64,000 bases of DNA, taken from positions 376,650,001 through 376,714,000 of the forward strand of contig CM097882.1 in assembly GCA_044892505.1 (NCBI GenBank), in the 5' to 3' direction. A program made the translations under genes and the position numbers. The notes under the pieces are model-generated. The model saw only the letters and a program-made list of their open reading frames with translations. It was not told the DNA's origin and did not search any database. Positions 1 through 48,466 of this stretch are shown in pieces. Each line of letters starts with the position of its first letter. The stretch's first letter is position 1. The stretch comes from Schmidtea nova (taxonomy: Eukaryota).

Positions 1-2450
1 ATCCAGAATATTAAAAACCGATATTAAAAAGTAAATCGTTCGAATTAATGCTCAAATCCGATGGAATAATAATGAAACCGAAATTAACTTTATTCGATGT
101 CGAAAAAATTTCGTTGAAAAATTTATAACTTATTTTTATTTTATTTTTATTTAGCATATAAAATTTTTTAGATTAAATGCTTATTTAGATTTCGGAAAAT
201 ACGGATGAAAAATTTACTATTATGTGAATTTCGTTCCGATCAAAAAATGAAAATTTACTTTTTATTATATTGGAAAAATTTTTATAATGAAAAATTGTGA
301 ACCAAAAATTCTCCGAATATTGTTATGATATAAAAGATTTGGTTATTTTATAAAAATCCTAAGAATTTATAAATCAAAATTTATATTTGAAACCCATAAA
401 ATTTTTTTTAAAATCAAAAATATTATTATTATAATGAAAATTTTATCATTTCAGAAAATCCAAAATTTCAAAATTTTATAGGAAAAATTTTTACTATGTA
501 TATATATATACATAAAATATAAAAATTCGAATATAAAAATTCATATTATAAAAATTAGAAATGGTATTATTATATTATTAAAATTATAAAAAGCATTATA
601 AAAATGTATAATATAAAATTGGGAATTTTATTAGTATATCATTTTCATAAAATTATAAATTTAAAACTTATAAAAAGTATTGTAAAAATTTATATTATAA
701 AAATTAGAAATTTTATTATTATATTACTTTCATAAAATTATAAATTAAAAAAAAAAAAATTTATAAAAAGTATTATAAAAGTGTATATTATGAAAATTAT
801 AAATTTTATTATCATATTCATAAAATTATAAATTATTGTAAGAATGTGTATTATAAAAATTAGAAGTTTTATTATCATATTTTTATAAAATTATTTATGA
901 AAAGTATTATAAAAACTTATAATATAAAAATTGGAAATTTTATTATTGTATTATTTTCGTAAATTTATAAAAAGTATTATAAAAATTATTATTATTATTT
1001 TAATATAAAAATTATTATTATTATTTTAATTTTAAAATTATTTTATATAATTTATATATATATATTATAAATACCCCCACGATATCTCAAAAATCATATT
1101 GCATCCCTATTTGCAAAAAATTACATCCATTTCATTCAATAACATTTCCCATACTAATACACAAGCAACATATATTTAAAATACAATATACACACATACG
1201 CAGTATCATTTATTAGCATTCAATAGTTATATACACACAAGCCAACAATACTGAAAATTCTACACTGTTAAGTTAGTCGGCAACATACATCTAGAAAAAC
1301 CATACAAAAATTTCTATCATTCAAACCTACCATATAAAATTGAATTTACCCAGCCAAATAGGCCGTTTACATTACAGTTTATTTTTAATTTACAAAAATT
1401 TCATAAAAATAATAAAAACTCAAACGAAAAAAAGTAAAGACGAAAAAATTGTTATATAAAGATTTATTGATAAAAATTCAGTTTGAGGGATAAGAGTCCC
1501 CGGCAAGGATTTTTTCCGGTTTACAATGCTGGAAGGGCCAGTTCCAACATATTCTCTTCAAGAAATTTTCTAAAATTGATCAAAATAAATTATAATTCTG
1601 AAATAATCAAAATTTTACTTGGTTGGTAGAGCGGGCTATTTTGCTTCATAGGAGCTCGAGTTCTAATTGGATTGACCCGTTTGGGGTGGGAGAATTTTCC
1701 TCTGGTATCGTAGTTTCTGGAAAGGTCCATTTCTTGTTGATCTGAACTATAGTAATAGTTAATTTATCAATTTAGCGAAAATTTCAGGAAATTACATTTA
1801 AAATTAATATAAATTTTAAATTGAGTAAATTTGTCCTTTTGATTAAATTAGCAATTTTAAACAAACGGAAATTTTATTTTTATTATTTCTAAACTGGATT
1901 AAATTACGGTAATAATTAAAATTTTTCTTAAATTTCAAATGTAGATTAAATTTTTACTATAAAAATATAATATTTTATGTATTAATTATCATAAAATGCA
2001 ATATTGATAAAATATAGGGTTACATTAGTGTTTTGATGCTCGGAATAATTTATTTGGATGTATTAATGGATTTATAGTTATGTAGAGTGTTTATGTTGAA
2101 TTTCCGATAAAATTTTGTTGAATGCTTATAGATAAATCGTCGAAGAAGGGACAAAACGGGCAATAAACCTTCTATCGGTAGCCCTTGGACCCAGGAGATA
2201 TTCGGTCAATCATAGTTTCGTATTGACGACGCTCACTGATTGCGAATACCCACCCACTTGTTACAGTACCAACGTTACATAGTGACGGGTAACAAGATGG
2301 TAGCTTAAATGTTTTATGTGTTGAGTTGTTGATGCGAGCCATAGCAACGTCAAGGTCATATTGACGATCAACAACCCACCAATACTTAAAATTATGCAGC
2401 AATAAATATTCAAATAATCCTGATATTGATGGCAACATTCTTTTCAAAGA
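1..2450 (-). repeat. Copy A of a multi-kb degenerate composite repeat (AT-rich block, CA-rich block, exon-like pieces, conserved ~230-bp block)
   Basis: 31-420 aligns by eye with 4329-4860, 1074-1270 with 5151-5350, and 2030-2395 with 6445-6795. Strand is given from the exon-like and ORF orientation. Confidence 0.8.
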
Positions 2451-13629: not shown

Positions 13630-14762
13630 TTAAAACTTCTCAAACATAGAAGGTAGTATTGATAATTAGTGAAAGGTAGTTTATTAGGCGTCTAGATCTA
13701 TTTTACCCAATATAAAATTCAATCAATTTATCTTAGTTTATCTTGATAATTTTCGTATTATTTGGAAATGTATTTGGAAATGTAAATTGAAAATTTAAGG
13801 TACATGAGTTAACATACGAATAGATATATAAATCATTAAAATAAAAGATACCACCAAAGGGCAACACGAAGTTGAATTTATTTAACAACAACATTACAAC
13901 ATCAAACCCGAGTTCGATCGACAAGTTTTCCTTAAATCACATCCCATAATGGGCTGAATCTCATCGCAGGATAGGGAGCCGAATTTTGCAATATATTTTC
14001 CAATAAAACTCCCATTCATCGCCAATTAATTTCTTTAGTTTTGTTGACCAAAATTGTGCAAGTTAATTAAAAATGAAATCCCCGGCGAAAAACTTGTGGA
14101 TCCAATGAAGATAAAATTTCCTCAATAGGGGAAGATTTCCAAGATGGCAGTGTATCATTCACTGCATCGTTTTTAATCGCAGTGTAGAATTTGCGATCCA
14201 TTGAAGAAGAGGTTTGTCACTCCGAAGAAAAGTGTCTGGATAGAAGATTCCGACGGTTTGATAAACTGTTTCCATAAACTCCTTGAATAACTATGGTCGA
14301 GCCAAGAAATCATAACCATCTAAATAAATTTATGGAATAAAATGGAATTAAAAAGAAAAGATAAAAACGCTTACTCTAAATATTGAAACAGGAAAATAAA
14401 TTCCAGAAATTCTAAAATAGAAAATAATCGATAATAATAAACTCTAAATAGGACCGGCAATCAAAATTAAATAATTAAATCCACTAAACGCATTTCAAAA
14501 TTACTATATAGCGTATTTCTAATTGCGATAGTAGAAAGGTAGGGTCCTTGAGTTTTCTGGATATTCCTAAAAAAATTTTATTTGATAATTAAAATTTCAG
14601 TAGAGGGGGAGTAAAATGCTCAAATCAACCGATCATCAAAAATTTATAAATCTCAATCCGTTGTCAATGACTACCAACTTGGCGAAGATTTAAAAGTTAA
14701 AATATTAAATTTTTAATAAAAATTGTTATTATTATTTATAAGAAGCAAGAAAGACACTAGGT

Positions 14763-15232
14763 CAGCGGTCGGGGAACTTTTTTAACCATTACCCCAAAAT
14801 ATTTTTGCGTAAGTCGATATTATCCCCCCTTCTGAAAAGAAAACAATCAATTTAAATTTAAATAAACATTATTTATTAATATTATTATCAATAATTCTCA
14901 TAATGACTATAGATCAAAATTTTTTTTTATAAACAATAACACAATATTTCGGCACAGCCTTTATCGGCTGTGCCGAAATATTGTGTTATTGTTTATAAAA
15001 AAAAATTTTGATCTATAGTCATTATGAGAATTATTGATAATAATATTAAAAAAAGATCAAAGGTGAAAAAAGATAATTATGATATTATTTATTAAATTAA
15101 TTTACATTTACATATTTATAAAAAAAAGTTGCACGAAATAGCAATTTAAATATTAGAAAAATTTCCCTATTACCCAAAAAATTTTCATTTTTACCCCATT
15201 TGGGGTAATTTACCCTGGTTCCCCGACCGCTG
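14763..15232. mobile_element. hAT (Charlie-like) MITE (470 bp)
   Basis: 15-bp perfect TIR CAGCGGTCGGGGAAC and 8-bp TSD CACTAGGT (14755-14762, 15233-15240). The paralogous repeat copy at ~23800 has the empty site (acctagtg). Confidence 0.92.
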
Positions 15233-16106
15233 CACTAGGTAATAAAATATAAGTGAAGTTTAGTCAAATATATCCATAAAAATTCCAACAATTTAAAAAG
15301 CATAAAAATAATAATTAAGTATATTGGGATAATAAAAGCTGTACATACCCGAGTAATTACGTTTCTAAACGAATGTTTGAATCCCGAATTGAGTGGTGAT
15401 ATTTTAACATTTGAAGTGTTTTGAGTAACTTGGAAACTCGAAAAGTTTTCATAATACCATGTAACCTTAAAATGAAGATCTCAGATTCAAGGGTTATCAG
15501 ATCCTGCTATATTACTGTCGTTGCCGGATACTAAGACCTCGAAGGAAATTTGAATATATTTAAAATTTTTTTTGAATTTAGTGAAATTGTAATTAAAATC
15601 ACGCAGACTACTCCTCTTAATTCAAAAGATCAACCAAAATTTTTTTATTACACTGTAATTTCAAACTTATCACTCAATGACATTAATTGCCGTTCAGATC
15701 CTGTAAACATAGGAGTTAAATACGGTTGAATAATGAATAACCTTACAGATAAATAAGCGTTCCCATCGCATAACAATTGTATCTATACAATGCATTTTTG
15801 CTTTTGACTTGTGTGAATGTTGCTGTATTGTAAATTAAAAGTTTGTGTACAAATTGATTTCCTTTATCATGTCATAGTATAATATAAGTAGTTATCTTCA
15901 CCTATATTCATATTATATTCTAATGGAACATAGAGATTAAATTTCCTTCTAAACACAATACAAGTCAGAGACATAATAATTAAAGCAAGGGCCTATAAGA
16001 GTGCAATAAACTTTCTACCGGTCGCCCTTGAACCCAACGATATGTTCGGTCATTCATAGTTTCGGTTTTTTGACGCTCACTGTTTGCGAACATTCATCCA
16101 TCTGTT

Positions 16107-17821
16107 TGATTTAAAAGAAGCCCTGATGAAAACACCTATACTGGATTATCCTAGGATAGACAGGGTATTTGTCTTAGATACGAATGCTTGTTTTGAAGCT
16201 GTAGGTGCCGTTCTGAGTCAAATCACAGAGGAAGGTAAAGAAGTAGTAATTCCGTATGGGTCGAGACATCTCACAGCACACGAAAAAGGGTATTGTGTGA
16301 CCAGAAAGGAATTGCTGGCATTACATGAGTATGTTACTTATTTTCGTCAATACTTATATGGGAAGGAGTTCATAGCGATTACCGACCACAAGGCGCTTGT
16401 ATTTATGAATACGACAAAGAAAGCGATAAGTCCACAATTCCAAACATGAATGGTGAACTTATCAGAATATAATTTTAAATTGCAGTATCGGAAAGGAGTA
16501 GAACATGCGAATGCCGATGGATTGTTGAGAATTGGAGGAATGTTGTGCGCACAATGTCAAACACAACACGAAGAGCCGAAGAAGGAGAGAGCTAGGGTAC
16601 GATATATTAATTCGATACAAAAAACTGGCACCATGATGAAAATTATGGAAAAACAAAAGAAGGACAAGGGGTTTCAAGGAGCATGGAATTATATCAATGA
16701 AATTTTGAATGAGGAAGAAGTTTTTTTCAAGAAATCTTTCCTATATGCTCACAAAGACAGATTGAAGATCAACGATGACCTAATTACCGTAGAGAGAGAA
16801 TCCAGTGATTTAGTAGCAGTTCCAGAGAGCCATCAAAAACAACTGGTTAAGAAGATTCATGAAGAATTATGTCATGTGGGGGAAAAAAGTCTTTCATTAC
16901 ATGGAAAATAGTTTTTTCTGGCCAAAGATGTGTGAAACAGTAAGACACGTTGTAAAAAAATATAGTATATGTGCGAGAAGGAAAATAGATCAAGGAAGAA
17001 CGAAAGAACTTTTTATTCCACGCGGAAGTAACGGGTTTTTGGAACAAATCGTAGTTGATGTAGCACACATGGAAAAGACATGGTCCGGAAAGAGATATGT
17101 AGTTGTCATAATAGATCGGTTCAGTAAATTAGTATGCCTAACTGCGACAGAGAAGCAAGACGAAATGACGATATTCCGGATTATACTTCATAATTGGATT
17201 TATAAATATGGAAAGCCAGAAAGTATTCTTTCAGACAGAGGAAAAAATTTTGAAGGCAGATATATGAAAGAGAATTTCGAAGTTTTAGGGATTCATCAAG
17301 AATTCTCAGCACCATATCAACATTAATCAAATGGATTGGTAGAAAGAGTAATTCGCACGATGAGAGATCTACTGGTGACTTCAATTCTTAGTAACAAGAG
17401 GCGATATGAATGGTGCTAGATACTTCCAAGGGTGGAATTCAGCATCAATGCGACGTTTCAAAGCACAACTAAATATTCTCCATTTGAGATTGTGTATGGA
17501 CGGAAAGTGTCACTTCATGCCAATGGACAAGGATCAGAGATCAAAGGCCAAAGAGTTGACGAGAAAGTGGTTCAGAATGCTAAGTTAGCGGCGGATAGAA
17601 TGAGAATTTTAGAAAAAGATCGAAGAGGTAAACGTTCTTTTGAAGTGGGGGAGGAAGTATTGGTTCGGCGGGAGCCATACAGAAGGAATAAGAATGACAT
17701 GCAATACGATGGACCATATAAGATTGTTAGATTTTTGTCGGAACACCAGGTCGAGCTACAATTTCCGGATGCTAGACGACCGAGACGGATAGAATGGCTG
17801 AAGAGATGGCATCAAAGTTGA
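16107..17821 (+). mobile_element. 5'-truncated Ty3/gypsy pol (RNase H and integrase), pseudogenised
   Basis: FVLDTNAC..AVGAVLSQ, ELLAL, ITDHKAL (RNase H), IHEELCH (IN zinc finger), VVDV/IIDRFSK/ILSDRGKNF/PYQH*SNGLVER (core) and YDGPYKIV (GPY/F). Stops at 16449 and 17324, plus frameshifts. Confidence 0.93.
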
Positions 17822-18108: not shown

Positions 18109-19872
18109 ATGAATAATGAACAATATACGATATTTGACGAGAATTCCTTGAGAAAAATAAAAAGCTCTCAAGCACAGGGAAAACTGAAAATTGTATCGAG
18201 GTATTTACAGGATATTCCATGTAAAGTTAATTGCACCCATAATTGCAATAGAGATTTTGATGGTAATTTAAATAATTTTTAATAATTATTTCAATGAAAA
18301 ACGGCACCATTTATAGGTCTCAGAATTTCTCCAGATGTTTTCAATTATGTTATAATCGATACAGAATATTTGATTAATTTTTCTGAAGTTTTAGATTTAA
18401 TTGATAATATAGGTTTCATAATAACACTATCTACGATGAGATATGTATGGAACTATTTTTTAAATAAATTATTTATTTTCCAAATAGATACAAAACTATA
18501 ATCGCAGGCTTTATTATAAATTGAAAAAACTATTTGAAGATCCAGCTAAATCGATAATTTTATTCCAAAATGAATTTCATAGAGAATGTTTCATTACCCA
18601 GAAAGAAAATGAAGAAACACTCAATTATATCACCCGTTTGAATTACTTTGCTGCACAATTTTACCTTGGTCATCTTGATTATCATCCAACTGTTGTGCTG
18701 CTGACAGCCAATACCGATGTTGCGATGCTCCAATACAGCAACTGTGTGAGAAAATCTGGAATGGATTCGTCAGTAAATGTGGAAATTATGAAAATTAAAC
18801 AATATTTATCGAATTATCACAAAGATAATTTTTCAACAATGGAATTAGTCGACAGTCTTGAAGCTGCTTTCGATTGCATTAAGAATTCTGATGTAAATAT
18901 TCCACAAGGTATTTTATTATTTACTTGACATTTTAAACGATTATTAATCTTATTTTAATTATATTTTAACTCATTTATTGAATTTAATTAATATCAGCAT
19001 CTTTAATTTCTGAAGAATTTATTCATTTTTTTACATTTTCATTAATTTAAGACAATAAATCAAAATATTTTCATTCGAATATAGCTGTATACACTCTCTT
19101 TATAATAGGATTCATAAAAATTGTTAATACCACATGTCCACAAAATGCTCCAATTTTAATTTTTTTACCTATATCCATTTACTGTTTGCATCGAGCTAAC
19201 TCGTCCAATATAAATGAAAGACTGTTGAAGGACGGTCGCACTGAGGATTTGGAAATCAAGGGCTCTTTCTGCCCATGTCGAAATTTTTTTAAAAGAATTG
19301 ATTTTAAATTTTGTATTCACTGCATTTCAATTTTTTTCATAAGTGCTTGCACTTATTTTCAATCGATTTATAGCTTATTCGATTTACAATTTAATTCTCT
19401 ACAAGATTCTGTTTAAACTTTTGTTATAATAATGATTTTGATTTTTAGCACACTGTGCACTTCAACTTTTTAAATGGTGCTCAAATAATATTTTAACATT
19501 TTATTACATCAATCTTTTTGAAAAGTTATTCTCTATAATATGCTATCTCAATTTGGGTTATAATAATGATTTTGATTTTTAGCACACTGTGCACTTCAAC
19601 TTTTTAAATGGTGCTCAAATAATATTTTAACATTTTATTACATCAATCTTTTTGAAAAGTTATTCTCTATAATATGCTATCTCAATTTGGGTTATAATAA
19701 TGATTTTGATTTTTAGCACACTGTGCACTTCAACTTTTTAAATGGTGCTAAAATAATATTTTAACATTTTATTACATCAATCTTCTTGAAAAGTTATTCT
19801 CTATAATGTGGTAACTTAATTTAGGTTATAATATTGTTTTCAATTTGTGTGCAAGTGTTGGGTATTATTTTC

Positions 19873-19934
<62 letters not shown>

Positions 19935-22900
19935 CCCATTGAAGTCTATGGGGGTAGAATACGATTCGCTATCCATTTTAGTTTTCGTATACCCTTAACT
20001 TAAATTACTCGACTTTGTTTAAAACAGGAGCTTCGATAGTATTGCTACGCAATATTAAACATCAAAAACGGGAAACTCTTTTTATATTGTAACTATTAAT
20101 ATTATGCTTATTATAAATAATGTTAAAATTTAAACTTAGTAATTTATTAAAAATTAATTAATTAGAAAATTATAAACATAGTGAAGCGGTTAGTTGAATA
20201 TATTCACAATAGCACTTAATATTGATTTCTCAATTTTGCTATTTATACATAATAATGACGGCACTAATACCTTTTTTATTTATATTTTTAAACTCATCAC
20301 AGAAATCTAATTTAATTATTAGAAATGCGTATTGATGCAATGCAAGAATACCTTTCGGATGAAGTATTAGCTCGTTCTGTAAATTCCGGTGATTTTCTCA
20401 AAGGTATTATTCGAGTGAATAAATTCAAATCGAGAGATGAAGCAATAGTTGTACTGTCAGAGTAAATTCCTATTTCCATAGCAGAAACAAAATTCTTTAA
20501 TTTTTCACAGAGGAAATTCCACAAAACAAATGATGGCAGTACACAGCGAGGTTTTAATTCAAGGCCAACTCAACCGAAATCGTGCTATTGATGGAGACTG
20601 TGTCGCTTTGATGATTCTCCCGGAATCTCAATGGGCCAGCAAGAAATTGGAAATATCGGGATCGGAAGCCAGTGCTGAATTAGCGCTTCCCGTAGCAGAA
20701 ATAGCCGAAAATGAAGCAATCGAATCAGGCAGCACAAGAACACCAACCGGTCGCGTTGTGGGAATCATAAGAAGAAATTGGAGGGATTACGTGTGCAGCT
20801 TTGAAAAGAGTGATCTCAATGTCGGCCAATACGTGCTGGTCACCCCGTACGACAGACGGATTCCGAGGATCAGAATCGGAATCACTAGTGCCGATAAATT
20901 GATAAATCATCGATTTATCGTTCGAATTGACGGCTGGCCTTTGAGTTCCAAATATCCGAATGGGCATTTTGTCGAATCGATTGGAGTTATCGGTGATTTA
21001 GAAACGGAAACCAGAACGTTACTCATTGAGTACAATCTATATAACCGACCATTCACTGCCAGCCAATTGGCCGAGTTGCCAATAAACACCCCGGATAAGC
21101 CCTGGAAAATGAACCCCGATGAAGTGTCGAAGAGGAGAGATCTGAGAGAATTGCTAATTTTCAGTATTGACCCAATCGGATGCCAAGATGTCGATGATAC
21201 GCTGTCGATACGGAAACTACCGAATGGGAATGTCGAGCTCGGTGTTCACATTGCCGATGTTACGCATTTCGTGAAGCCGCACTCGCTGTTGGATCTGGAA
21301 GCAAGGAAACGGTCGACGAGTATTTACATGGCCGACAGACGGTTTGACATGTTACCCCATGTTCTCAGCGGGGATTTGTGCTCATTATGGAGCGACGTGG
21401 ATCGATACGCTGTCAGTGTTGTCTGGGAACTCACGTCGGATATTGAGGTCGTCTCTGTCGAGTATTTCCGGAGTGTCATTCGGTCGAGTTATAAATTACA
21501 CTACGAGCTCGCACAGGACATTTACGATAGCAAAATCGATTTTAAATCCTCGCTTGAACTGATACCGGAATTGGCAAAGAAGCACAAAGCATTTAAAGAT
21601 GGCGCCGAACGATTCCAGCAGTTGAAATCGGCAATTACAATGCTGATCAACGTGTCATCTATCCTGAAAACGAGGAGAATCGAAGCCGGCGGGTTGGAAT
21701 TGGAAGGAATGGAAGTCCAGGTGAAATTTTCCGACCCGGAAAGAACTCAGTTAGAAGATCTCCATCAAAAGGAACCGCTGGAAGTCCACGAAACGATTGC
21801 CGAATGCATGATATTCGCCAACCATTGGGTGGCGAAGAAATGCCTAGAGAACTACCCGACTCGGTCGTGCTTGCGTCACCATCCGTCACCGAGAATGGAC
21901 CACTTTGTGGAACTGATTCATTGCGCTAACACGAAAGGATTCACGATTAACTTCTCATCGAATTTAGAGCTCGCTAAATCGTTGGATTTAGCGGTCGATA
22001 AAGACGATTTGGAAACCAACAAAATCCTCCGAAGTCTCGCTACAATGGCCATGTCGAATGCGCAATATTTCTCCACCGGATCCCTGAAAGCCGAAGACTA
22101 TTACCATTACGGATTGGCATTGCCGACTTACACGCATTTCACCTCACCGATCCGTCGGTATGCCGACATTCTCGTCCATCGGATTCTGCTCTGTTCCATT
22201 GAAGGCGTTCCAGAGGAGAGTTTGTTGACGAATTCTTCACTGGCTGACCAATGCAACATCATGAACAATCAGTAAATGGATTTTTTATTTATCTCTCTCT
22301 CTCTCTCTTTACATTTTTCCAAATACTTTTTTTCGTTTTTATTGCAAAACAATTTAGGCACCGACAAGCACAACTGGTACAACGGGCGAGTATCGAGCTG
22401 TTCCAGGCAATGTTTTTCAAGAATAAAGAAACGAATGATATTGCACGATATACTGAAGGGGTTATTGTGAAATTACGCTCGAATGGATTCGTTGTTCACA
22501 TCCCTAGATACGGCATCAAAGGTTCCGTGTTCCTCAAGAAGCAAGATAACTCGATCGCCTGGTTGAAATCTCGTCCGAAACCGTTATCGAATATGAAGGA
22601 GGTTTATCACGTGGAATGGCTCAGTGAAAATGACATCAGGTTGGAGACTGAATGCTATCAGCAACTGATCAATAAGCTAACGGTTATCCGGGGAGCCAAT
22701 CAGAAGAAACAGATCTATAAGTTATTCGATCGAGTTTTCCTGAGAATTGATGCATCAGAAAGTCATTCTCACGGGTTGTCATTGCAATTGGAATATGTTG
22801 GACAGTTGAGATCATCAAAACAGAACGTAAAGCAGCTCGCAGTCGTCGATTTGTCTGATCGTTTGTCGAAAGATGATTTATTTCAGGTTTTTGCATTTTA

Positions 22901-23105
22901 GATTTTTATATGAGATTTATGAGAGAAAAAACTTTTCTTTTAGAATGTCAGAGAAGCAAATGATGAAAAGGTTAAGAAAAGAAAATATGTAGAAGAGGAG
23001 GAAATCGATGAATCTGTACTCATTGGCAGTCTCCATTCAAGTTCGTCTATGTGCAATTTATTTCGGCAGTTTAAAATTCGAAAATTGGGAATTAGTCTTC
23101 TATGA
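18109..23105 (+). CDS. DIS3L: DIS3-like exoribonuclease 1 (PIN-CSD-RNB-S1), 7 exons, ~1097 aa
   Basis: Exons 18109-18262, 18317-18444, 18488-18908, 20323-20461, 20511-22271, 22358-22886 and 22944-23105. All introns are GT-AG with consistent phase (3294 nt). Motifs: GKLKIV..YL..IPC, YVIIDT, LFQNEFH, NRAIDGD, PTGRVVGII, IFSIDPIGCQDVDDTLS (DIS3L-type RNB catalytic motif), HYGLALPTYTHFTSPIRRYAD. AATAAA at ~23159. Confidence 0.92.
19425..19830. repeat. 134-bp tandem repeat, 3 copies, in DIS3L intron 3
   Basis: aatgattttgatttttagcacactgtgcac recurs at 19431, 19565 and 19699. Confidence 0.92.
19877..19932. repeat. (TA)n microsatellite
   Basis: Direct reading. Confidence 0.97.
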
Positions 23106-24700: not shown

Positions 24701-26440
24701 GAAATACTTTGGATATAACATGCTGCATAGGTAACATATGTGAATGTAATTAATGTTTTATGTTTTATGTAATTATAAGAGTTATGCAATTTTATATAAA
24801 TAAATATAAATACGACACTAAAATTAAAATATTCATTTGCGTTTTGTCTTCCGTATTGCACTTTAATAAAAATGTAATAGGATTCTAGACGTTAATTATT
24901 TTGAACAGACCTTGCGCTTGGAAAATCCACTACTCCTCATATAGCCAGGTATGAGATGAAGCGTTCTTGGATGTTTGCGCTCACTTCGATGAAAATATAG
25001 ATCATAACACTGAAAGAACTCCACCAAAAGCACTTCACCAAAGCGACTAATGACGGTACAACGACTAGGTAGACCATCATCAGACGTATGGAAATAGTTT
25101 TAATGAGAAAAAATATAAATTTGCATATGTTAGAAGATGGGCGAAATATTACACAATAGGGACAGATAGATATAGAATAAATATGTTGGGTTATTAGTGT
25201 TAAGTCGGTAGTTTCTGACTCCGGTGTTCTCTTTCAATTACAAAATAAACAAAACCCAACACAATAACTTTCTTTATTTTTCAAATGATCACAACTCTTT
25301 TTATCACAAAAAGTTACTCAGGTTCTGCACTCTTCGCGTGAGGGTAGAACACCCAATGGGATATCTCTCTCTCTGATACGCAAAAGATTAAGTGTAAATT
25401 CTACTTTTGATTTCCTTTCAACGTCTCCTTCAAATATCTTCTAACGGTTTGCTTCACTTTACGCCTAAATTTTATCTTCGATCAACTGGCTTCGAAAAAT
25501 TAACTTTGACCCAATGGCCATATCGGCAATTTGCGCTCTGTTTATATACTACTTTTTGTTGTCATCCTGTCAGCTTAATTGGATCTGGAGAAAATGAAAT
25601 AATTAAATTTGTTTGACCGCCGCCTAATTGAGTTTCGCCGCTAATGGTTTTTCGTCTCTTCCCGGGGCATTAAATTTATTTCGATTAAATGATTTAATTA
25701 AATGATTTTGTTGATGCCCCGGGTTTCCCACATCGCTCGGGTTTCCCATAAGCTCGGGTTTCCCATTGGCTCGGGTTTTCCATTAGACGATTAATTATTT
25801 TTTAATTAATTTGTATTTTCTTAATTTATCTTTCTGGGGGTCCTATTTCAATTTTATATACCCATATTTGAATTCGTCTCATCATTTGGCATCTTCCCAT
25901 ACCAGTTTCAAACTTTATTTTAATTTTTTGTAAATTTTTAATTAATGTTTGAACATCAATTATTATTTTTCCAATTTTTATTGATTTGTGCAATTTTAAA
26001 TTTATTTTCTGTGATTATAACAACCCCAACAAATATACATATCCAGAAATAAATATAATCTACAGAAAATGGATTGATTCGATAAACAACAATTGTGACA
26101 ATATTCATGATAATTATTATGATGACAATTTTGTGATTTATATTGATCATGACAATTATGACTATATTGATGATGACAATTTAATTTGATCGATTAATTA
26201 TATTTTATTGATTAAGTATAATTTTGGGGATTTTTATTTTTTTTGTGAACAATAAATTTTATTTTAATTGATATCAATTTGTGATAAATTGTTACAGGAA
26301 CGATTTTTGTAATTAATGAGTCAAATTTTTGTAATAGACAAAGTAATATAAAAAACAAAAACAAAAGAACAACCCTTATTATAATTATAATATAATTATA
26401 ATTATAATAATAATAATAATAATAATTATTATTATTATTA

Positions 26441-26580
26441 TTAACAAGTAAAGCTTGTGATTTTTTGTGATACCCAGTACAAATCCCCAATAGCAGACTA
26501 GTTTCGAGCTTTTGGCTCTCATCAGTGCTATTGGGGATTTGCACTGGGTATCACAAAAAATCACAAGCCTTACTTGTTAA
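26441..26580 (-). ncRNA. Minimal type I hammerhead ribozyme with 55-bp helix I (Penelope-like element type)
   Basis: The minus strand reads ...AATAGCA CTGATGA GAGC CAAAA GCTC GAAA CTAGTC TGCTATT..., with all core nucleotides present. Predicted GUC cleavage is between 26496 and 26495. Helix I arms are 26441-26495 and 26526-26580. Confidence 0.88.
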
Positions 26581-26602: not shown

Positions 26603-26776
26603 NNNNNNNNNNNNNNNNNNNNNNNNNNNNNNNNNNNNNNNNNNNNNNNNNNNNNNNNNNNNNNNNNNNNNNNNNNNNNNNNNNNNNNNNNNNNNNNNNN
26701 NNNNNNNNNNNNNNNNNNNNNNNNNNNNNNNNNNNNNNNNNNNNNNNNNNNNNNNNNNNNNNNNNNNNNNNNNNNN
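26603..26776. other. Assembly gap
   Basis: N run. Confidence 0.99.
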
Positions 26777-26793
26777 AACAGTTAAAGCAAAAT

Positions 26794-26934
26794 GAGCACT
26801 TAGTGCTCAATAAACTAAATAGAAAGGCACTTAGTGCCAATATAGGTAAACAAAAAGGCACTTAGTGCCAAGTTCAAAAAAATAAAGCACTAAGTGCTTA
26901 TTATTAACAATATTTTAAAAGCACTAAAAAGTGC
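26794..26934. repeat. Array of five phased GCACT-N-AGTGC palindromes
   Basis: GCAC starts at 26796, 26827, 26858, 26887 and 26921, with unrelated A-rich spacers. Confidence 0.8.
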
Positions 26935-31439: not shown

Positions 31440-32100
31440 AATCAAAGGCATAGTCCATAATTAGCAATACTTTGAGTGGAAGATTAATTTTTAAACGGTA
31501 TTTTTTTCACTGTAGGACCGAAGACCTCATTGATCCACTCAACAAACAAGATGCGAGTGACCCAATTTTGCTGTTGGACCTCCACATAACGTTTAACTAA
31601 CTTTCCTGTACCTTGCATTTCTTGAAGGCTCGTGGATTCTCGGAATGATACACCAGCAAGTTTTAATTTTAAAATCCCCGCTTGCAATAGCACAACACAA
31701 GAGGGTAAGATGGTCTTTCATGGGCTTGTGACTTGTCATTGCATTCTCTTCTATAGTAATGTAAGTCCTCTTTGGCATCTTTTTTCAAAAAAGCCCTGTC
31801 TCATGACAATTAAAAACTTGCTGTGGTAGGTAACCATAGGAAATCATTAGTTTCGGAAATTCAATGGCAAACGCCTCAGTTGCCTTATTTTCCGAACTCG
31901 CAGCTTCTCCGTGTCGCACAACTCTATAGATACCACTTCTCTTCTTAAAGCTGTCAAACCAGCTTCTGCTCGCTTTGAAGCCTTCTTCGTATCTTATCGA
32001 CGTATCTGGAAGTTTGCTTATAAGGTCGGCGTACAAAATCTTTGCCTTCTCGCCGATTCAGTTTTTACTAATTTAGTTAAATTTGTTAAATTTTTATTCA
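31440..32100 (-). mobile_element. Tigger/pogo transposase fragment (pseudogene)
   Basis: FKASRSWFDSFKKRSG..VVRHGEAASS, QQVFNCHETGLF, MPKRTYIT, KPMKDHLTLL.CA.ASGDFKIK and WVTRILFVEWINEVFGP, with frameshifts. Confidence 0.92.
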
Positions 32101-33638: not shown

Positions 33639-35529
33639 CTGAGAAATAAAAACTGTATAGATCTTGTGGTTAAAAGAAATATTTTAAATATAAAAGTAAT
33701 TAAAGGATTTTAGAAAAATTGTAGAAAGCTGTCACCATAATTATAGATATTTCTAACACTATTCCAAGGCACAATGGTCAGGTATTTAATTTCGGATACA
33801 TTTCCAGATCATTTAAATCCATTTTACACCAACAATGAAATATAACTAAGAAATTTCATAAATATGTTGGGATTGTACTAAGACAAACGTGAATAAAATT
33901 TGCTGGCTTATTGGGTTGTTGGTGAAATTGAAATTTACTAATTAATTCTCTGACCCCAAAGCGTGCTTTATCTGATCCACAATAACCCTTTATTGATTAC
34001 ACAATTTACAATGATACGACCAATTCAACATTAAAATAGGAATATATACAGAACTTATTACAACACTTCGTGAGGAACAGCTCGAATGTATAATACCTAG
34101 AATACAACAATCACTGAACACTGATTTAGATTCGATAATTAGCAATAGATTTCAGTTGTTTTCGAACTTTGACTTGCTAATTTATTCAATATACTTTGAC
34201 TCTTATAATTCTCGTTTTCTTCGTTCTCTATATCTTCTCAATACAAATTTTCCAATTATATAACTTATCCAATGTAAATTATGTAATTAATTCAAACTTT
34301 TAATTTTTCTCCCGATCTAAACCTCTCAATAAATCTTCTGATTCAACTACTGTGGCTTTCCATTTTATATCTCGTCCTTTTTGGCTATCGAGATAAATTT
34401 TGTTATTCCCGTTTGTAGCTCCAGAATACCTCATATTTCTCTCCTAGCTTCCACATTATCTATGAAAACTGTCAATATATGCAATGTTTCCTTTTTTTAT
34501 TTCGACTTTTTCTCCTGCAGTCCTAATATCTTTGAAAAGCTGCCAAGATATAATTTTTCTTGCTTTTGTTTTTCGATTTCGGAATTCCTTTTCGATTTTT
34601 GTACTTCTTAATTAGGAATGGCCTTTTCTGACTAATTGTTCGATTTCTCTTATTTCGCTGCCATCTCATTTCTCAATTTTTGCGTTTCCTTCACCCTTCT
34701 CCAAATTTCAGAACACTACATCATTTACTCTATCCATTTCCCCCCAATCATTTTATTTATTTGTGATAATATCCAATTTATTATTTAGGTATCCACAACC
34801 AATTCGAGTGTGAATTAAATTAATTCCAAAATCTCCAAAATAGAAAAATCAATATTTCCAAAGGAAATAGCATTAACATGTGGCAAATGGAAGATAGAAC
34901 CGATAAAAATAATTTCTACTTGGATAGATGGCTGAAAAACAGCGGTCATCGACCTTTTTATTGTTGTGTCACTATTTAAAATATTAATAGTTTGGATACC
35001 CGACAGAAAATAACTTGTCGGAAAAAGACTTTTTTTAGCAAATTTAGTTGATTTAGTAATAATTTGTTTACGTCTTTTGTATATTTCAACAATTATGTTA
35101 AATCTTTTTTTCTCTTGTACTCGCGAGAAGAACACATGCCTCTGATTGAGAACCTCAACTATAGTGTATATTATCATAATTATCTTTTGGTTTCACCTTT
35201 GATATTTTTTTATTTATATCAATAATTTCCATAATGGTATGACTATAGATTAAAATATTTTTGGTTTTTAAGTACACGATATTGAAGCTGTGCAAATGTT
35301 TGACTTTTGATGTTCAGAGAAATGCAATTAAGTTTTTGTGATCAAATTACATTATTATTTTCTAAAGTTTATTGATGAGGCTTATTCATTTATTTATTGG
35401 GAATATAAGGAGTCAAATTTAAAATAGTACGACTGACAATTCAAATAAACCCCAAAAATATAAATAACACGCATAAGAAAAATGAGCTGCAAATATTAAC
35501 AATGAATAAAACAAAATCTGTTTACTAAC

Positions 35530-35909: not shown

Positions 35910-38018
35910 CTGAATGAATGACAATAAATTAATTCCACACAGTAATATTTATATATAGATTGTATTTTAAGTTACAGCAAGGTTATCGAAAAATATTAAA
36001 GAGATAGATATCATAGAAGCGCAAAACATTAAAAACATTAAAAAAATTAGTTATATATTTATGAAAACTCGAAATTCAATTCACGAAGTGAAAATACAAC
36101 AGAAATTTAAGTTATAAATAACAAATAGAAAAGACTTATTAATTAACACGGAGGTTCTTAAACTTTTTAAAATTTCCTGAGTGGGGGTCCCTTTAAAAAT
36201 TGTTCGATAACTCGCGGACCCCTTTAGTCAGTTATATAATATAAATAAATATGGGTTCGTTTTCGCAGACCCCATTTTGAGAACCACTGAATTGACACGT
36301 TAACAGTCATAGAATAGCTAGCTGGATTGAGCTCTCACCTAATTCATATAACCACATCTTTTAATATTCCCTAGTTAATACGATGTCAGTGCTATCAGTT
36401 CCATAATACTGTATAGAACTCGGATAAATATTAAGTTGAATGGTAAGACAAATTCTTTCAAAAATTCGGCTCAAGTTAATTATTTCAATAATATTAATTC
36501 ATATGTCGTACGCCAAAGTAATTTATAAATATTGTTTCCGGCTCTTGTCTGCATTAAAATAAACTTTCCCAAAACAATGCTTTTATAAGCCAAGAACCAT
36601 TACTGGAAATGAATAAATTTGAAACTTATCTAAAAAAGAAAACTAAGTAAAATTAAACATTTTTTAGAATAAATAAAACGGCATTTTGAAAAAGTTTGTA
36701 CTTTCAAAAAAATTAGTTTTCATGCATTTTTAAAATGAAATGCACTAGAAATTGCAATCCGTTTCACAATTTATCAAACAAAACATGTAATTTGATTTTA
36801 ATTTACTTATTTAAGAAATAGTTATTATTTTCTTTTCTTTTTTTATTCTATTTATACTATAAAATTTTAAAATGAATAATCGTATTTATTTTCTATTATT
36901 TTCTATTAAATAAATTTCGTTTGTTTTATAGCATCAATCATCTCAGTGGAAATCTAGCGCTAAATTCGGCCAATCAATTTTCACATTTTTAATTAACTGT
37001 GACATTTTTCAGTTCAATAACGGTTAATTTATGGATATGTTTCTTAGAAATATGTAGTTTATATTATTTAAACATAAACCGATTGAAATTATTTATATCA
37101 TTTATCATAACTAATTTGTCAGGTATACCGTTAATAATACCTTATTAGGTTATTTATTCTGTAAGCTAACAACTCTGAATTCAGGTGAAGGAAAATATTC
37201 AAGAAGAAATTATAAGCAATTGAAAAGAATTTCGTATTGGGGTGATCAGGATCTTTTTAAGATCGAAATATTTCATCAAATAAACATTACGGAAAAAGTT
37301 TAACACATTTACCTTATTATTATAATTTAACAATTATTTCAAAATTTTCATTATTATAATATAAGCAACTGTTCCGTGTTGTTCCCAATTAGACACCTGA
37401 GTAACCTGTATAACTAATTATTTACCGTAATTATTTATTGCAACTATTGTCTATTCAATAAATAGTAAACAAAATAATTCTTTATTTGTGGTTAACCAAG
37501 TTTCTCGAATTATTGTTACGGAATTAGAACTAACCGAATCAAATGCTGAAACCAAATACTTCACGATAATATTTAATAAATCTTATAATAAAAGATTTTC
37601 GCTTGTAGAGATTTATAATTAATTAAAAAACATTAATCAAATATTAAATTATAAAATAAAATTTTAGGACATTTATAAAATTAATTTTATCACGTGGTAT
37701 GTATAAATTAAATTGTTTGATGTAATTTTTAATGTTTCATTCACTTTCACCAGGTTTATAAATATTTTCTTGAATGACGATTAAAAGTTAAACAAGATAC
37801 TAAATTGAAAAACTTAGCGGATCCAACCTAGAAAAATTTTATGAATGAATATATTTATACGTAAAATGAGATTAAATTTTTTTTATTATTTTGTTATTAT
37901 AAAGTACAGAATAAACGTCATTCAACAATGTCGTAAATAATTGAGATCTCGTTTCAATTCAATTTCGAGAAATAAATATTTACAACCGTTAATAATTTAA
38001 GAACTTTTAAATTGAATA

Positions 38019-38910: not shown

Positions 38911-39993
38911 CTGAATATTAAAATTGAATTAAATAAAAACCCAAGTAAAATTGATAATTTAAGAGTTAATAAATTCAGAAAAATAAAAATTGATGAATAT
39001 TTATTGTACGCTTTTTAAATGCTGGGTTCTCAATGAATGATATTCTATATAAAATTGATTTCCATAAAAATATTAAATCAAAAATCTCAATAGCACCATA
39101 ATAATATTTGGAACACGCAAAGAACACATGAACTATCATGCCAATTGAAAAAACCAATCAAATTTTTATTAGCATTAGCAAAAATTTGTCACATGTTTTG
39201 CCTGCAACTTATAATGGAATATTATTGTTGAAGGGAAAAAAGTAAATATTCCCGTTCATATCGAAAATAACAATATCAAATCGGAATCACAGATAATTTA
39301 ATTCAAAATTCATTTATTTAACAATTTTATTTGACTTTTCAATAAAAATACTGACCAAATATCAAATAATTCATATAATAAAAATATTTACAATACATTT
39401 TTTATAACTATCCAGCAAATTTTTAATTTATTTTTCATTTCTCTAGAGAAAAAATCAAATATTTCCAAAATTTGAAAAATTCAGTGTCTAAATTTTGTGT
39501 TGAATAGAAGGAAAATTTATTCTTGATCTATTGACTAAAAAATGAAATTGAAGACGAAAAATATTTTAAAATAAAGGTTTTAATGATATTATTAATTTAA
39601 ATAAAATTTTTAAAAAACTAACAAATTTTACTGAATTTAAATTACTGAAATAAAATATTAAAAAAATTTTCATTAATAAAAAAAGCACATTCGCTATCAA
39701 ATGCTTTTTAACAGGTTACACGTAACATTCATTATGTGTACCTTTTATTATAATAATTACTATTTAAGCCAATGATCATTTAATACAATTAAATCCTTTA
39801 GTGAACCTCATACCGGATCGCCAACTCATAATGGTCTTGACATCGAATGCTTTAGGCAATAATAAAAATTTTATATAGGATGTAGAAATTGAAAATTTCA
39901 CATCAAAATTATTAATTCCGAAATTCATATTGAATAATTTATCAAGAAAATTTCGAGACAATTTTCGAAAGAAAATTATCTCGAAATCTATTA

Positions 39994-40237
39994 CAGGGTT
40001 ATTCCAAACCATATATTCATTTATTCAAAACTATATATTCATCTATTCAAAACTATATATTCATTTATTTTTGAATAAATGAATATATAGTTTTGAATAA
40101 ATGAATATTTAGTTTTGAATAAATGAATATATGGTTTTGAATAAATGAATATATAGTTTTGAATAAATGAATATATAGTTTTGAATAAATGAATATATAG
40201 TTTTGAATAAATGAATATATGGTTTTGAATAACCCTG
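39994..40237. mobile_element. Tc1/mariner-type foldback MITE built from 22-bp subrepeats
   Basis: TA on both sides and TIR CAGGGTTATTC(C/A)AAACCATATATTC. About 3 left and 7 right inverted copies of ttttgaataaatgaatatatag. Confidence 0.82.
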
Positions 40238-40614
40238 TAAGTCACAGCAATAAATCAATATTAAATATTTAAAAACCAGAGCTGTCATTTACAATTCATT
40301 GTTTTACCATTTTAATATCAATGAAAATCTAAGCAACAGAAATGAAACTAACTCACATCTGAAAATCAATTAATTTATTAACAAAGCCTTTCAATGAGTC
40401 TGCAAATTATAGAAAATTCCACAATCACATGACATTTGTAAGTATATTTTGCCAAAAGTCACATGATTAATTTAAAGGCAGTAAAATATATCTAAATATA
40501 GTAGCAATTCTTTGTGCAAATTGTTTATTTTGAATCCAATATTAGAAAATAAACAGAATTGTTGTTTAACTAGTAAATTCCATTTCAATAGTTCTTTCCG
40601 AACTACTGATTTAA

Positions 40615-44108: not shown

Positions 44109-47100
44109 AAATGGCGCTAAGACAAAATGGTAACGAAAAAATATAAGATGAAATAGCCATAGTAAAAAATTAAATAACTTATTTATTAAAATTAACGTTT
44201 TGTCCATGTAATTTTGTCCAGTCACCCAATAAATTAAATATAACTACAAATCTTTGATCAATAAATGGACAATAAAATCAAAGTAACGATTTATCTAATA
44301 ATTGATTTGATACAGAATTTCATATATTTTCATTTTTTCAAACAATAGTTCAAATGATTTTTCGTTTTCGATTCAACACAGATTTTTGGCACTGCCTTTT
44401 TTTCTTTAAATAAAAATTGGAAAAAAATCAGTGTCGAAGTTTGTGTTGAATTGAAAAAGAATTTTTTCTCAATATATTGTTTGAAAAATATCGAAATTGT
44501 AAAAAGATCAAAGGTGAAGAAAATTAAAGATTTTAATAATGATAAAAATAAGTGTTTTGACTAATAACACTTTTTTAAGAAAGTTATGATTATTTAAATT
44601 AACTGAATTTTAAAATAAAATCGCTTTAATTCCGACACTTTATTAAGAATGGTCTCTCTTTACCCGATTTATCCATGAACGTAACATATTTTAATGCTAA
44701 AACTTTAAATTAAAGCATATACTTAACAATTGATTAAATGGTTTATTTTGTTTTCTATCAACAAACGCTATATATCAAAGTTTGTTTAAAGGTCTACTTT
44801 AGAATTATCAGTTGTAATCAGTTGTCATATCACCTTATTTTTAATAATTCGCATTTGAAAGTACAGAAAAACTGGAAACAAACTCAAATTTATGAAAATT
44901 GTAATTCAAAATTTAGATTTGACTTTTATAATTGCAAGCCTTGTCATAATGCAGGTACGAATTTAGAGGAAAGGAATAGTTAATCACGTTATAATAAAGT
45001 AATTATACAAATATAAATATAATAAACTTAAGTGGTTAGCCTTCGCTGCAGTATTTATTTCAACGAAATATTTCGATTTAAAAAATATTCTGTTCACTCC
45101 AATACTAAATTTTTTCCAATTGATTTTTCACTTCTTCATGCTTTCCTCTCCTTCCTTCAATTCTGATTTTATTATCAAAATTTAAACAAATTAAAATTAT
45201 TGATTTAGATATTAAAATTTTGAAAAATCAAAATATTGAAATTTATTTTGGTGGTATTCAGAAATAATTTTATTGGAAATGAATTTTAAATTGTTTAAAT
45301 TTTTATATTAAAAACGGGACTGAGCGAAAGGAAAGAAAGAAGGAGCGAAAAATCAATTGGAAATAATTTAGAATTGGAGTGATTAGGAATTTTTAAAAAT
45401 CGAAAGATTTCATTGAAATAGACATTATAGAAGAGTAACCATTTTTATTTCTTTTATTAAATAATAAAGTGATTGATTAGATGAATTATGACGGTTGCTG
45501 TACTTTGACAGATATTTCTCCTTGTATACAATGACAAATTAATTCTACACGATTTCATGTTTTTCAGACAATATATCAGAGTTTGCCTGCATACTGATGA
45601 GATAAGTTGATTTTGTTTACAAAAATGCATTGTTTATAACTGCGTACTGAAATAGAAAAAGTTCTTTCAGTTTCCAATTGTGAAACTGTTGTCAATTACT
45701 AAATTTTAAGTGCTACAAAATTAAGCATATCACCAATACACATAATTAAAATATGGGCGGAGTGAAAATGTAAACATATTCTTTAATAAAATAATTTCTA
45801 CATTTCAATAATGAATTTTAACATATTTTTTTGCAAAAAAACCATTTCCCAATGGAATCCGTATAAAGAACTCGCTTATATTCAAATTGAACCAGAAGAA
45901 ACAAAAGGGATAAATATAATTATCTAAAAAATATTTGCATCTGTAATAAAAAATAAAATTTCGTTCAAAATTATAAAATAGTTTATAAATTCTCGATTTT
46001 AGTCTGGAAAAATTCCAATAAAAAAAATTTGAGCACGATGAAATATTTTTAAGTTTATATGATTAAAATTTCTTTGGAAACGCATTAAAACAACAAAAGG
46101 ATATTTTATTTGAAAAGTTTCATAGTTTGTTTAAATGTATTCTGATTTATGATTTAGAAAATTCATTTCAACAATAACAATTGTCAATGAACTAAATAAG
46201 ATGCAGAGAATCAATTTAAGCAGACATTAATTCACATTTGTGCAACTGACATAAACAGCTAAAATTTCACCGTGAAATTTCTTAAAATATTTACACCGTT
46301 TGTGACGCACTAAATGATTCTATTACATCAGCAAAATGCTGCAATAACAAACATTTTGAAAACAAAGTAAAATTTACTTTAAAAAATTGTCTTTAATATT
46401 AATAAATCTTAAAACTTGTACATTAATTATAATAAAATTCCGGAATGAACCCTCCACTGTAAACAATACCCGATTTTGCACAATTAGATTTTAAATTTTC
46501 GATCATTCCATCCGATAAAATTGATGAAAGAACGCTTATAAAAAATTTATCCTCAAATGATAAAATCCTAGCTGTAACATTGGCTATATGAGGAGGGCGC
46601 CAATACGTTTGTAGCAGTACATCTGATCTTAGGGGTACAATGGGATAAAATGGATAATGAAAAAATAAATTAGTTAAATCAGTAGATTAAACCAATGAAA
46701 ATGAATAAAGATTTTTATCAATTTTAATTTAAAATTTATTCTATTTAATTCACTTTCCAAGCCAGTATTTCTTAACCTTTATCGTTATTTGCATCTCTTT
46801 GGGATTGGAAAAAGATTATTGCACCCGTTCAAAAAATAATAAACTTTATTACGATATTAATTAAAAAGCTCGACTAAAATAGTGATTATCATCCATATAT
46901 TCAGTCTGAATAAAAATGGGGCCTATTTTCCATATTTTTTATATGTAGATCTCCGACCGAGTTGAGAATAATTTTTAAACATAAAATCTTTGATTTAAAA
47001 TATTATGACATTAGATGGAAATCAAGCCTCTTTTCTAGCATGCCTAAGGAGTGCGTATACCTCGGGTTAAGAATCACTGTTCTACGGAATAAAATATCAT

Positions 47101-48094: not shown

Positions 48095-48466
48095 GGTACT
48101 TTTCTGTTAATTCACCTCAATTATTCTATTTTTATTTTTCAAAGAAATGAATAAATTTATTCAAATATAAAACAACATCAAGCGTATTCTGTTGATCTGT
48201 CAGCGACAAAGTCATGATATGATAGTTTGAACAGCGACGCAGGCTATGCACAATTCCATGTTGCTGAAGGAACTGCAGACTACTTCTTTTATCATTACAT
48301 AAAACGGATAATTGTAACAAACTTATATTAATATTTTAATATTTATTTTGTTATTTATTTGTGCAACTTCAGCTAAACACTATAAAGGTTATTAAAAAAT
48401 TGAATAATTTAACTGAATTAATTTAAATGATTAAAAATAATTGAGGTGAATTAACAGACAAGTACC
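48095..48466 (-). mobile_element. Merlin (ISXO2/IS1595-like) internally deleted element (372 bp)
   Basis: TIR GGTACTT(T/G)TCTGTTAATTCACCTCAATTATT and 8-bp TSD CTTTAATC (48087-48094, 48467-48474). The internal LQFLQQHGIVHSLRRCSNYHIMTL resembles the Merlin N-terminal Zn-ribbon region. Confidence 0.78.

What the first reader, a model, noticed from the sequence alone, without database searches (positions are those of the whole stretch)
26441..26580. Hidden hammerhead ribozyme closing a 55-bp hairpin on the minus strand
Seen: the minus strand reads 55-nt arm, CTGATGA, GAGC-CAAAA-GCTC, GAAA, C-TA-G, TC, then the complementary 55-nt arm. That gives the intact core (C3-A9, G12-A15.1, U16.1, C17), a 4-bp helix II and a 2-bp helix III inside the palindrome ACTAGT. 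The only two arm mismatches are G-U wobbles on the minus strand and A-C on the plus strand, which independently points to a minus-strand RNA fold. Known: minimal type I hammerheads with a very short palindromic helix III occur in pseudo-LTRs of Penelope-like retroelements and cleave mainly as dimers. Inference: this is a Penelope-derived or retrozyme-like unit beside a (TAA)n/(TTA)n tract. A dimer partner could lie in the adjacent gap (26603-26776). It has the same polarity as the SIK gene ending 6.7 kb upstream, so SIK read-through RNA could be cut here.
Basis: partly seen in the sequence, partly recalled or inferred. Interest (0 to 1): 0.82.

Follow-up and report, generated by a model that had tools for sequence, protein, structure and literature searches.

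The report
Penelope retroelement scar with hammerhead ribozyme
A real hammerhead ribozyme motif closes a long DNA hairpin that is most likely the small leftover of a Penelope-type retrotransposon insertion, a common thing in invertebrate genomes, though the way the two halves are joined may hint at what the ribozyme fold does for these elements.

Summary
The minus strand has an intact type I hammerhead core (26525-26496) closed by 55 pairs (53 Watson-Crick, 2 G-U), far beyond chance. The long stem is probably not an evolved ribozyme helix. It fits a head-to-head inverted insertion of a Penelope-like element (PLE) end, with the two copies joined through helix I, beside a (TTA)n target. The window holds an internal control: an unrelated palindrome at 14876-15049 is joined at a hammerhead-like helix II and has a 34-nt one-sided tail and a 12-bp target-site duplication, and it has two older relatives. 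PLE hammerheads, head-to-head inversions and tails are all published. The monomer is predicted mostly misfolded. No relative of the hairpin itself was found, and no eukaryotic genome could be searched, so PLE origin is inferred from architecture. Verdict: new member of a known kind. One testable lead: PLE inversion junctions may form through hammerhead helices.

The parts
26496..26525 (-). Type I hammerhead core: C3-A9, 4-bp helix II with 5-nt loop, G12-A15.1, palindromic helix III, C17; predicted cut 26496/26495
26441..26495 (-). Direct copy: 3' strand of helix I and the element's 3'-terminal 52-55 nt; last 3-4 nt overlap the (TTA)n tract
   Evidence: cut-to-end distance lies within the 30-355 nt of 24 Hydra-clade PLEs; role inferred
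26526..26580 (+). Inverted copy of the same 55 nt, starting at the cut position; joined head-to-head through helix I; 2 transitions relative to the direct copy
   Evidence: role inferred from PMC8557442 and PMC3846280
26581..26602 (+). One-sided 22-nt A/C-rich extension up to the gap; candidate visible part of the 30-40-nt PLE tail
   Evidence: no other copy in the window (best 16 of 22); inferred by analogy with 15050-15083
26376..26443 (.). (TAA)n/(TTA)n tract, its last ~36 nt self-complementary; candidate target site
26603..26776 (.). Assembly gap (174 N); would hide the tail end and any target-site duplication
14876..15049 (.). Comparison element (other family): perfect 84-bp head-to-head palindrome; centre is a 9-bp stem-loop followed on each arm by GAAA-TA-T-T, the 3' half of a minimal hammerhead
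   Evidence: 100 of 200,000 arm shuffles give this start
15050..15095 (+). Comparison element: 34-nt one-sided tail (15050-15083) and 12-bp target-site duplication (15084-15095 = 14868-14879)
   Evidence: 0 of 1203 AT-matched windows; tail recurs at 35.2 kb and 44.5 kb
44334..44551 (.). Older head-to-head palindrome of the comparison family, joined at the same stem-loop, tail on the right arm only
35168..35262 (-). Older single copy of arm plus tail of the comparison family, ending at the same point
   Evidence: (80.6%, E 1e-19)

Best explanation
It is the ORF-less scar of an insertion made by Penelope-like retroelement (PLE) machinery, from the hammerhead-bearing 3' end of a PLE pseudo-LTR or of its non-autonomous retrozyme derivative. 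Shown: core, arms, junction position, AT-microsatellite flank, one-sided extension. Inferred: the endonuclease cut both strands of a (TTA)n target and both 3' ends primed cDNA on element RNA. One started at the inner start site and copied 55 nt, the core and the 5' strand of helix I. The other started about 35 nt further out (the tail) and stopped at or near the cut site. Their 3' ends are the two complementary strands of helix I, so they annealed and were filled in. That gives a head-to-head inverted repeat whose arms continue a natural 4-6-bp helix I to 55 bp. The copy is now most likely inert. If transcribed it would be a long dsRNA hairpin that cleaves weakly at best, and more likely feeds small-RNA or editing pathways.
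For: Head-to-head 5'-truncated inverted copies, one-sided 30-40-bp tails and microsatellite targets are PLE hallmarks (PMC8557442). Palindromes at the inverted junction, and an inverted pLTR that overlaps the direct one by 15 bp and is 37 bp shorter, are described in PMC3846280, whose table lists ORF-less -/+ pairs such as 1..40 with 1..69 or 1..76. A PLE protein cuts and extends both strands, prefers ATT, and starts at two sites separated by the tail (PMC11167929). Cut-to-end distance 52-55 nt against 30-355 (median 79; 12 of 24 at most 80) in Hydra-clade PLEs. Helix III appears the same as in an Adineta PLE hammerhead (PDF layout lost). Internal control at 14876-15095 has the whole anatomy: arms, hammerhead 3' half, 34-nt tail, 12-bp duplication, and a 20-codon frame from an ATG through the tail that the 35.2-kb copy keeps across 3-nt indels. 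The tail matches the right arm but not the left in both palindromic copies (0 of 1000 shuffles against 940 and 314 of 1000).
Against: No second copy of the arm, core or extension in the window (best 30 of 55, 19 of 30, 16 of 22). No RT or GIY-YIG frame beside it (12 other frames scanned gave none). Peptide searches for a parent ORF found nothing (weak tests). Tail end and duplication are hidden by the gap; the best visible direct repeats are 5 nt. The control family is unrelated in sequence (37-438 of 500 shuffles reach the score), its 5' core box is absent or decayed, and it has no linked ORF either, so its PLE identity also rests on architecture. Self-priming on an antisense template (PMC3846280) would give the same hairpin. 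Published inversions also occur away from the hammerhead.
Confidence: 0.75

Rival explanations
1. The 140-nt hairpin is a self-contained mobile unit copied as a whole: a MITE with 55-bp terminal inverted repeats and TTAA or TA ends that carries a hammerhead core, or a hairpin-shaped retrozyme. The two G-U pairs could then be A-to-I editing fixed by reverse transcription.
For: Both ends read TTAA. Two copies of the control family are palindromes centred on the same stem-loop. Both mismatches are A-to-G on the ribozyme strand relative to a perfect complement.
Against: A palindromic end of an inverted repeat looks like a duplication automatically. The control palindrome also ends in TTAA, yet its real duplication is 12 bp and lies beyond the tail. 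Arms within a control copy score higher with each other than between copies (168 and 54 against 41), as expected if each hairpin was made anew from one arm; arm homogenisation would do the same. Single copy in the window. Two transitions are also ordinary mutation.
Confidence: 0.13
2. An assembly or library fold-back chimera at a contig end created the inverted arm next to a genuine hammerhead.
For: The hairpin ends 22 nt from a 174-N gap in a gapped assembly with five gaps in the window.
Against: The arms differ at 2 of 55 positions and continue into different sequence on each side; a fold-back would copy on into the (TTA)n flank. Similar palindromes mid-contig carry a target-site duplication.
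Confidence: 0.06
3. The host uses it as a ribozyme that cuts read-through RNA of the SIK gene, alone or with a partner hidden in the gap.
For: Intact core; same strand as SIK.
Against: Orientation match is 50% by chance; 31 AATAAA hexamers intervene; probability that the catalytic core is unpaired in the monomer is 0.011, because C3-G5 pair with the helix III strand; helix I has no internal loop for the loop 1-loop 2 contact; a hammerhead with a 1-bp helix III and palindromic tetraloop cleaved 6% in 1 h as a monomer (PMC7229834). No conservation data.
Confidence: 0.04

Closest known systems
Head-to-head inverted pLTR insertions of EN+ Penelope elements (Adineta vaga Pen2/Pen3, related to flatworm Perere10; PMC3846280)
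   Same: Inverted copy shorter than the direct one by about 30-37 nt and overlapping it at a self-complementary junction; one-sided tail; AT-rich (AAT)n targets; ORF-less remnants.
   Different: That paper's text does not relate the junction to a hammerhead. Here the whole remnant is 140 nt, and tail end and duplication are unseen.
Type I hammerheads of PLE pseudo-LTRs (PMC4209133; Hydra-clade list in PMC8557442 File S2)
   Same: Core, G10.1-C11.1, palindromic short helix III, position 52-55 nt from the 3' end.
   Different: No extra nucleotide after A9 and a 4-bp helix II, unlike most minimal variants but like some Hydra-clade and shrimp examples; helix I is 55 bp instead of 3-11.
Canonical metazoan type I hammerheads of non-LTR retrozymes (PMC7229834; Rfam Hammerhead_HH9 as best model)
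   Same: 4-bp helix II with a C/A-rich loop, 1-2-bp palindromic helix III.
   Different: No tandem 150-450-bp repeat; no internal loop in helix I, which the inversion would have erased; score 28.9 against 52 bits.
Poseidon element of Anolis (PAc; PMC11167929)
   Same: An ATG 27 nt before the cut opens a frame through the arm; ATT-rich target; A/C-rich extension.
   Different: The ATG here is part of the conserved core and the frame is open by chance in 1660 of 20,000 shuffles, so this is only a resemblance; no sequence comparison was possible.

Membership tests
Type I hammerhead ribozyme | Conserved core C3-A9, G12-A15.1, U16.1, H17 with helices I-III, open helix I | tested here: met
Type I hammerhead ribozyme | Rfam hammerhead model at gathering score | tested here: not met
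   HH9 28.9 of 52 bits; only the best model of the clan is shown, so Hammerhead_1 was not seen separately
Type I hammerhead ribozyme | Site-specific self-cleavage | not testable with these tools
   folding predicts core unpaired with probability 0.011
Canonical type I (retrozyme-type) | Internal loop in helix I contacting loop 2 | tested here: not met
   55 continuous pairs
Minimal PLE hammerhead (PMC4209133) | G10.1-C11.1 pair and palindromic 15.2-16.2 and loop 3 | tested here: met
Minimal PLE hammerhead (PMC4209133) | Extra nucleotide between 9 and 10.1; enlarged helix II | tested here: not met
   (bulge 0, 4 bp); exceptions occur among PLE-linked motifs
Penelope-like element | RT plus GIY-YIG ORF linked to this sequence | tested here: inconclusive
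   none in the flanks; short-peptide searches empty; parent copies could not be searched
Penelope-like element | Head-to-head 5'-truncated inverted copy | tested here: met
Penelope-like element | One-sided 30-40-bp tail | tested here: inconclusive
   22 nt visible before the gap; met in the control family
Penelope-like element | Target-site duplication | not testable with these tools
   expected position is in the N gap; 12 bp in the control element
Penelope-like element | AT-rich or microsatellite target | tested here: met
   weak in a window of about 19-41% GC per 2 kb
Non-LTR retrozyme | Tandem 150-450-bp units each with a hammerhead | tested here: not met
   in the visible sequence; the gap could hide one short unit
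Non-LTR retrozyme | Circular RNA | not testable with these tools
   no RNA data
MITE | Many uniform copies with family-specific TIR and independent TSD | tested here: inconclusive
   one copy in 64 kb; TTAA ends are part of the inverted repeat

The most novel reading that the evidence does not exclude
Head-to-head inversions of Penelope elements are sealed through the hammerhead's own helices: two cDNAs primed from the two ends of the target break anneal by the complementary strands of helix I or II. The ribozyme fold would then serve insertion as a built-in joining site, with or without cleavage. That would explain the one-sided tail, the junction palindromes and why the motif is kept although it cleaves poorly. 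Three inversions in this window fit (one at helix I, two of another family at a helix II-like stem). A bolder form is that such hairpin remnants are themselves re-copied as minimal RNA parasites.
Probability: 0.3. Interest if true: 0.68.

Novelty: new member of a known kind. Interest (0 to 1): 0.36.

Why it matters
As a locus it matters little: such motifs number in the thousands in many invertebrate genomes (PMC4209133). The junction is the useful part. The role of hammerheads in endonuclease-bearing PLEs is stated to be unclear (PMC8557442), cleavage was not needed for insertion in vitro (PMC11167929), and how the inversions form is open (PMC3846280). Mapping inversion junctions against hammerhead helices genome-wide is a cheap test of a structural role. 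Practically, these scars mimic MITEs and microRNA hairpins (mir-7 and mir-31 sub-threshold hits) and can be misannotated.

Tried and rejected
Rfam at gathering score: no match. microRNA matches are below threshold and follow from the long stem. Other copies in the window: none. Exact core pattern in bacterial and archaeal genomes: 0; phages and plasmids: no match; these collections are not where relatives are expected. Parent ORF by peptide: no candidate, 0 hits, 0 of 659 candidates for the control family; queries were 25-52 residues, so weak. Two 10-nt motif spellings and two planarian genus names in the PMC8557442 supplement: 0. TTAA/piggyBac-type ends rejected as evidence (see rival 1). Both arm differences are synonymous in one frame, which happens by chance one time in three; not used. 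A bacterial promoter and terminator scan is not relevant to this host. Literature searches for a link between hammerhead helices and inversion junctions: hammerhead+Penelope+head-to-head gave 0 papers; at least 3 of Penelope, twin priming, hammerhead, microhomology gave 1 unrelated by its listing; hammerhead+MITE+TIR+hairpin gave 1 review, listing only; Penelope+self-priming+inverted gave 4, one relevant. Two key papers (Lunse et al., RNA Biol 14:1499; Arkhipova et al. 2017, MBE 34:2245) are not held and were seen only through reviews, so novelty of the junction idea is not established. Unchecked: any eukaryotic genome, viral and metagenome contig collections, raw reads, RNA data.

Full report
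Observation. The minus strand carries a 30-nt type I hammerhead core at 26525-26496 between two 55-nt arms, 26580-26526 and 26495-26441. All 55 positions pair, 53 as Watson-Crick and 2 as G-U. None of 200,000 shuffles of the spacer placed the core boxes, and a type I descriptor hit 3 of 200 simulated windows and only this site in the real window. Rfam gives Hammerhead_HH9 at 28.9 bits, below its gathering score of 52. The motif is real.

Setting. The host is an AT-rich animal. A DIS3L-like frame at 20482-22275 groups with Schistosoma in a quick tree of 23 rows (22 named proteins chosen from the 120 listed; SH-aLRT 99, both branches long). A flatworm, perhaps a planarian, is likely but not shown. 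A kinase exon best matches SIK3. The hairpin lies between the 3' ends of these convergent genes, about 3.5 kb and 6.6 kb away, among transposon remnants. Left of it is a (TAA)n/(TTA)n tract; right of it are 22 unique bases and a 174-N gap. No other copy of arm, core or extension is in the window.

What the long stem is. In 24 of the 26 Hydra-clade rows of PMC8557442 File S2 (dropped: one minus-strand duplicate and one 5' copy), helix I is 3-11 bp and the cut lies 30-355 nt from the 3' end, median 79. Here the cut lies 52-55 nt from where the sequence meets the microsatellite. So core plus 3' arm has the shape of a PLE 3' end, and the 5' arm is an inverted copy of its last 55 nt that begins at the cut position. 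Inverted 5'-truncated copies, one-sided 30-40-bp tails and microsatellite targets are PLE hallmarks. In Adineta the inverted pLTR overlaps the direct one by 15 bp and is 37 bp shorter, palindromes mark the junction, and ORF-less inverted pairs are listed.

Internal control. A second palindrome, 14876-15049, has 84 of 84 pairs. Read outwards from its 9-bp central stem-loop, each arm gives GAAA, a palindromic dinucleotide, T, T. This is the 3' half of the published minimal hammerhead consensus; 100 of 200,000 arm shuffles start this way (I looked with this pattern in mind). One arm continues into a 34-nt extension followed by a 12-bp repeat of the left flank (0 of 1203 AT-matched windows, 23 of 19,593 random ones). 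A single older copy at 35262-35168 includes the extension and ends at the same point (80.6%, E 1e-19). Both keep a frame of about 20 codons from an ATG through the tail, as described for Adineta pLTRs (12 residues, 22 with the tail). A third, decayed copy at 44334-44551 is again a palindrome joined at that stem-loop, with the tail on one arm only. Of the 9 nearby inverted-repeat rows, three are these junctions (the finding and two control copies), one (45016-45458) keeps a decayed hammerhead-like motif in both arms, one is a 22-bp satellite, and four were not examined. The control family is not related in sequence to the finding, lacks a recognisable 5' core box and has no linked ORF, so it supports the reading by architecture only.

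Mechanism. A purified Poseidon protein cuts and extends both target strands, prefers ATT, and starts reverse transcription at two sites separated by the tail; ribozyme cleavage was not needed. From this I infer that both ends of the cut (TTA)n target primed cDNA. One copy ran through the core into the 5' strand of helix I; the other began in the tail and ended near the cut site. Their ends are complementary because they are the two strands of helix I, so they annealed and were filled in. A fold-back of one sense-templated cDNA would copy on into the flank rather than into a tail, which is not seen. Self-priming on an antisense template remains possible. The junction at the cut site does not prove that cleaved RNA was the template: helix I homology makes the crossing point ambiguous, and the control family joins at helix II, upstream of its cut site.

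Activity. In the predicted monomer fold, C3-G5 pair with the helix III strand and the catalytic core is unpaired with probability 0.011 at any helix I length; the double hammerhead is only 1.6-1.8 kcal/mol better than two monomers (the model ignores tertiary contacts and forbids 2-nt loops). It also needs helix I strands to swap, which a 55-bp stem should hinder (inference). A comparable weak-helix III hammerhead cleaved 6% in 1 h as a monomer; minimal PLE motifs showed none as monomers and low activity as dimers; 8 of 9 Xenopus dimers tested showed none. I expect an inert copy. The G-U argument is worth a factor of four at most. SIK read-through would have to pass 31 AATAAA hexamers (such hexamers are common in AT-rich DNA).

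Against my reading. No parent element, relative or ORF was found, and no eukaryotic genome could be searched. Tail end and duplication are in the gap. The core has canonical sizes (4-bp helix II, no bulge), so the source may be a retrozyme rather than an autonomous PLE; a preprint derives retrozymes from pLTRs. Published inversions often keep both hammerheads or join elsewhere, so joining at a helix is at most one route.

Sources seen. PMC8557442: passages, sections 10-11, supplement parts 1-2 of 59 and one supplement search. PMC3846280: parts 1-4 of 5, table part 1 of 2; its alignment file was unreadable and could bear on junction positions. PMC11167929: parts 1-2 of 4 and passages; supplements not seen. 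PMC4209133: parts 1-2 of 4, supplement parts 1-2 of 3. bioRxiv 10.64898/2026.07.22.740005: parts 1-3 of 5; supplements closed. PMC7229834, PMC6431247, PMC6765202, PMC2377424: passages. Lunse et al. and Arkhipova et al. 2017: not held, known through reviews. Hammerhead numbering, the strand-swap geometry of the double hammerhead, A-to-I editing, hAT and piggyBac end rules and the term twin priming are recalled knowledge.

Verdict. Observation confirmed; interpretation partly supported. It works like a PLE head-to-head insertion scar (0.75); family membership is likely but not proven. New member of a known kind, interest 0.36. The junction-through-helix idea (probability 0.3, interest 0.68 if true) was not found in four searches of a library that lacks two key papers.

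Noticed in passing
14868-15095: Young, perfect head-to-head palindrome with hammerhead 3' half, 34-nt tail and 12-bp duplication; the cleanest PLE-type scar in the window. Scores 48 bits against mir-31 (cut-off 51), a likely false microRNA.
   Followed up: yes
14755-15240: MITE with short terminal inverted repeats and an 8-bp duplication (14755-14762, 15233-15240), hAT-like by recalled rules; hosts the palindrome above.
   Followed up: partly
44334-44551 and 35168-35262: Two older members of the same family, one palindromic with a one-sided tail, one single and inside a SIK intron.
   Followed up: yes
37200-37375, 45016-45458: Repeat family with three copies, two head-to-head; each has a hammerhead-like motif with G3 and, in two, C8 (swapped 3-8 pair), a stem and GAAA, but only a 2-bp helix I. 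The left 45-kb arm matches the 37-kb copy about 43 nt beyond the inverted repeat. A relaxed descriptor hits 17 of 150 simulated windows, so weak.
   Followed up: partly
26783-26934: Five short GC-rich palindromes of one motif, about 30 bp apart, each beside an A/T run, right after the gap; no other copy in the window. Possibly subterminal repeats of a DNA transposon.
   Followed up: no
26408-26443: The microsatellite flank is itself a (TAA)n/(TTA)n palindrome; whether it predates the insertion is unknown.
   Followed up: partly
39991-40240: 22-bp tandem array that switches orientation at about 40069, forming a long inverted repeat.
   Followed up: no
20482-22901: DIS3L-like gene with a 597-codon uninterrupted frame on the plus strand.
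   Followed up: partly
10819-12633; 16060-17821; 8416-8634; 31484-32057: Broken mobile-element remnants: piggyBac-type DDE_Tnp_1_7 transposase, LTR retrotransposon RNase H and integrase pieces, a further integrase piece, and a Tc5/pogo-type DNA-binding domain.
   Followed up: partly
48162-49057; 63158-63625; 19423-19840: Tandem repeats: exact 451-bp duplication (possibly an assembly effect), 59-bp x 7.9 and 134-bp x 3.1 arrays.
   Followed up: no
45695 (minus strand): Relaxed hammerhead descriptor hit with U3-A8 and 2-bp helix I; probably chance.
   Followed up: no
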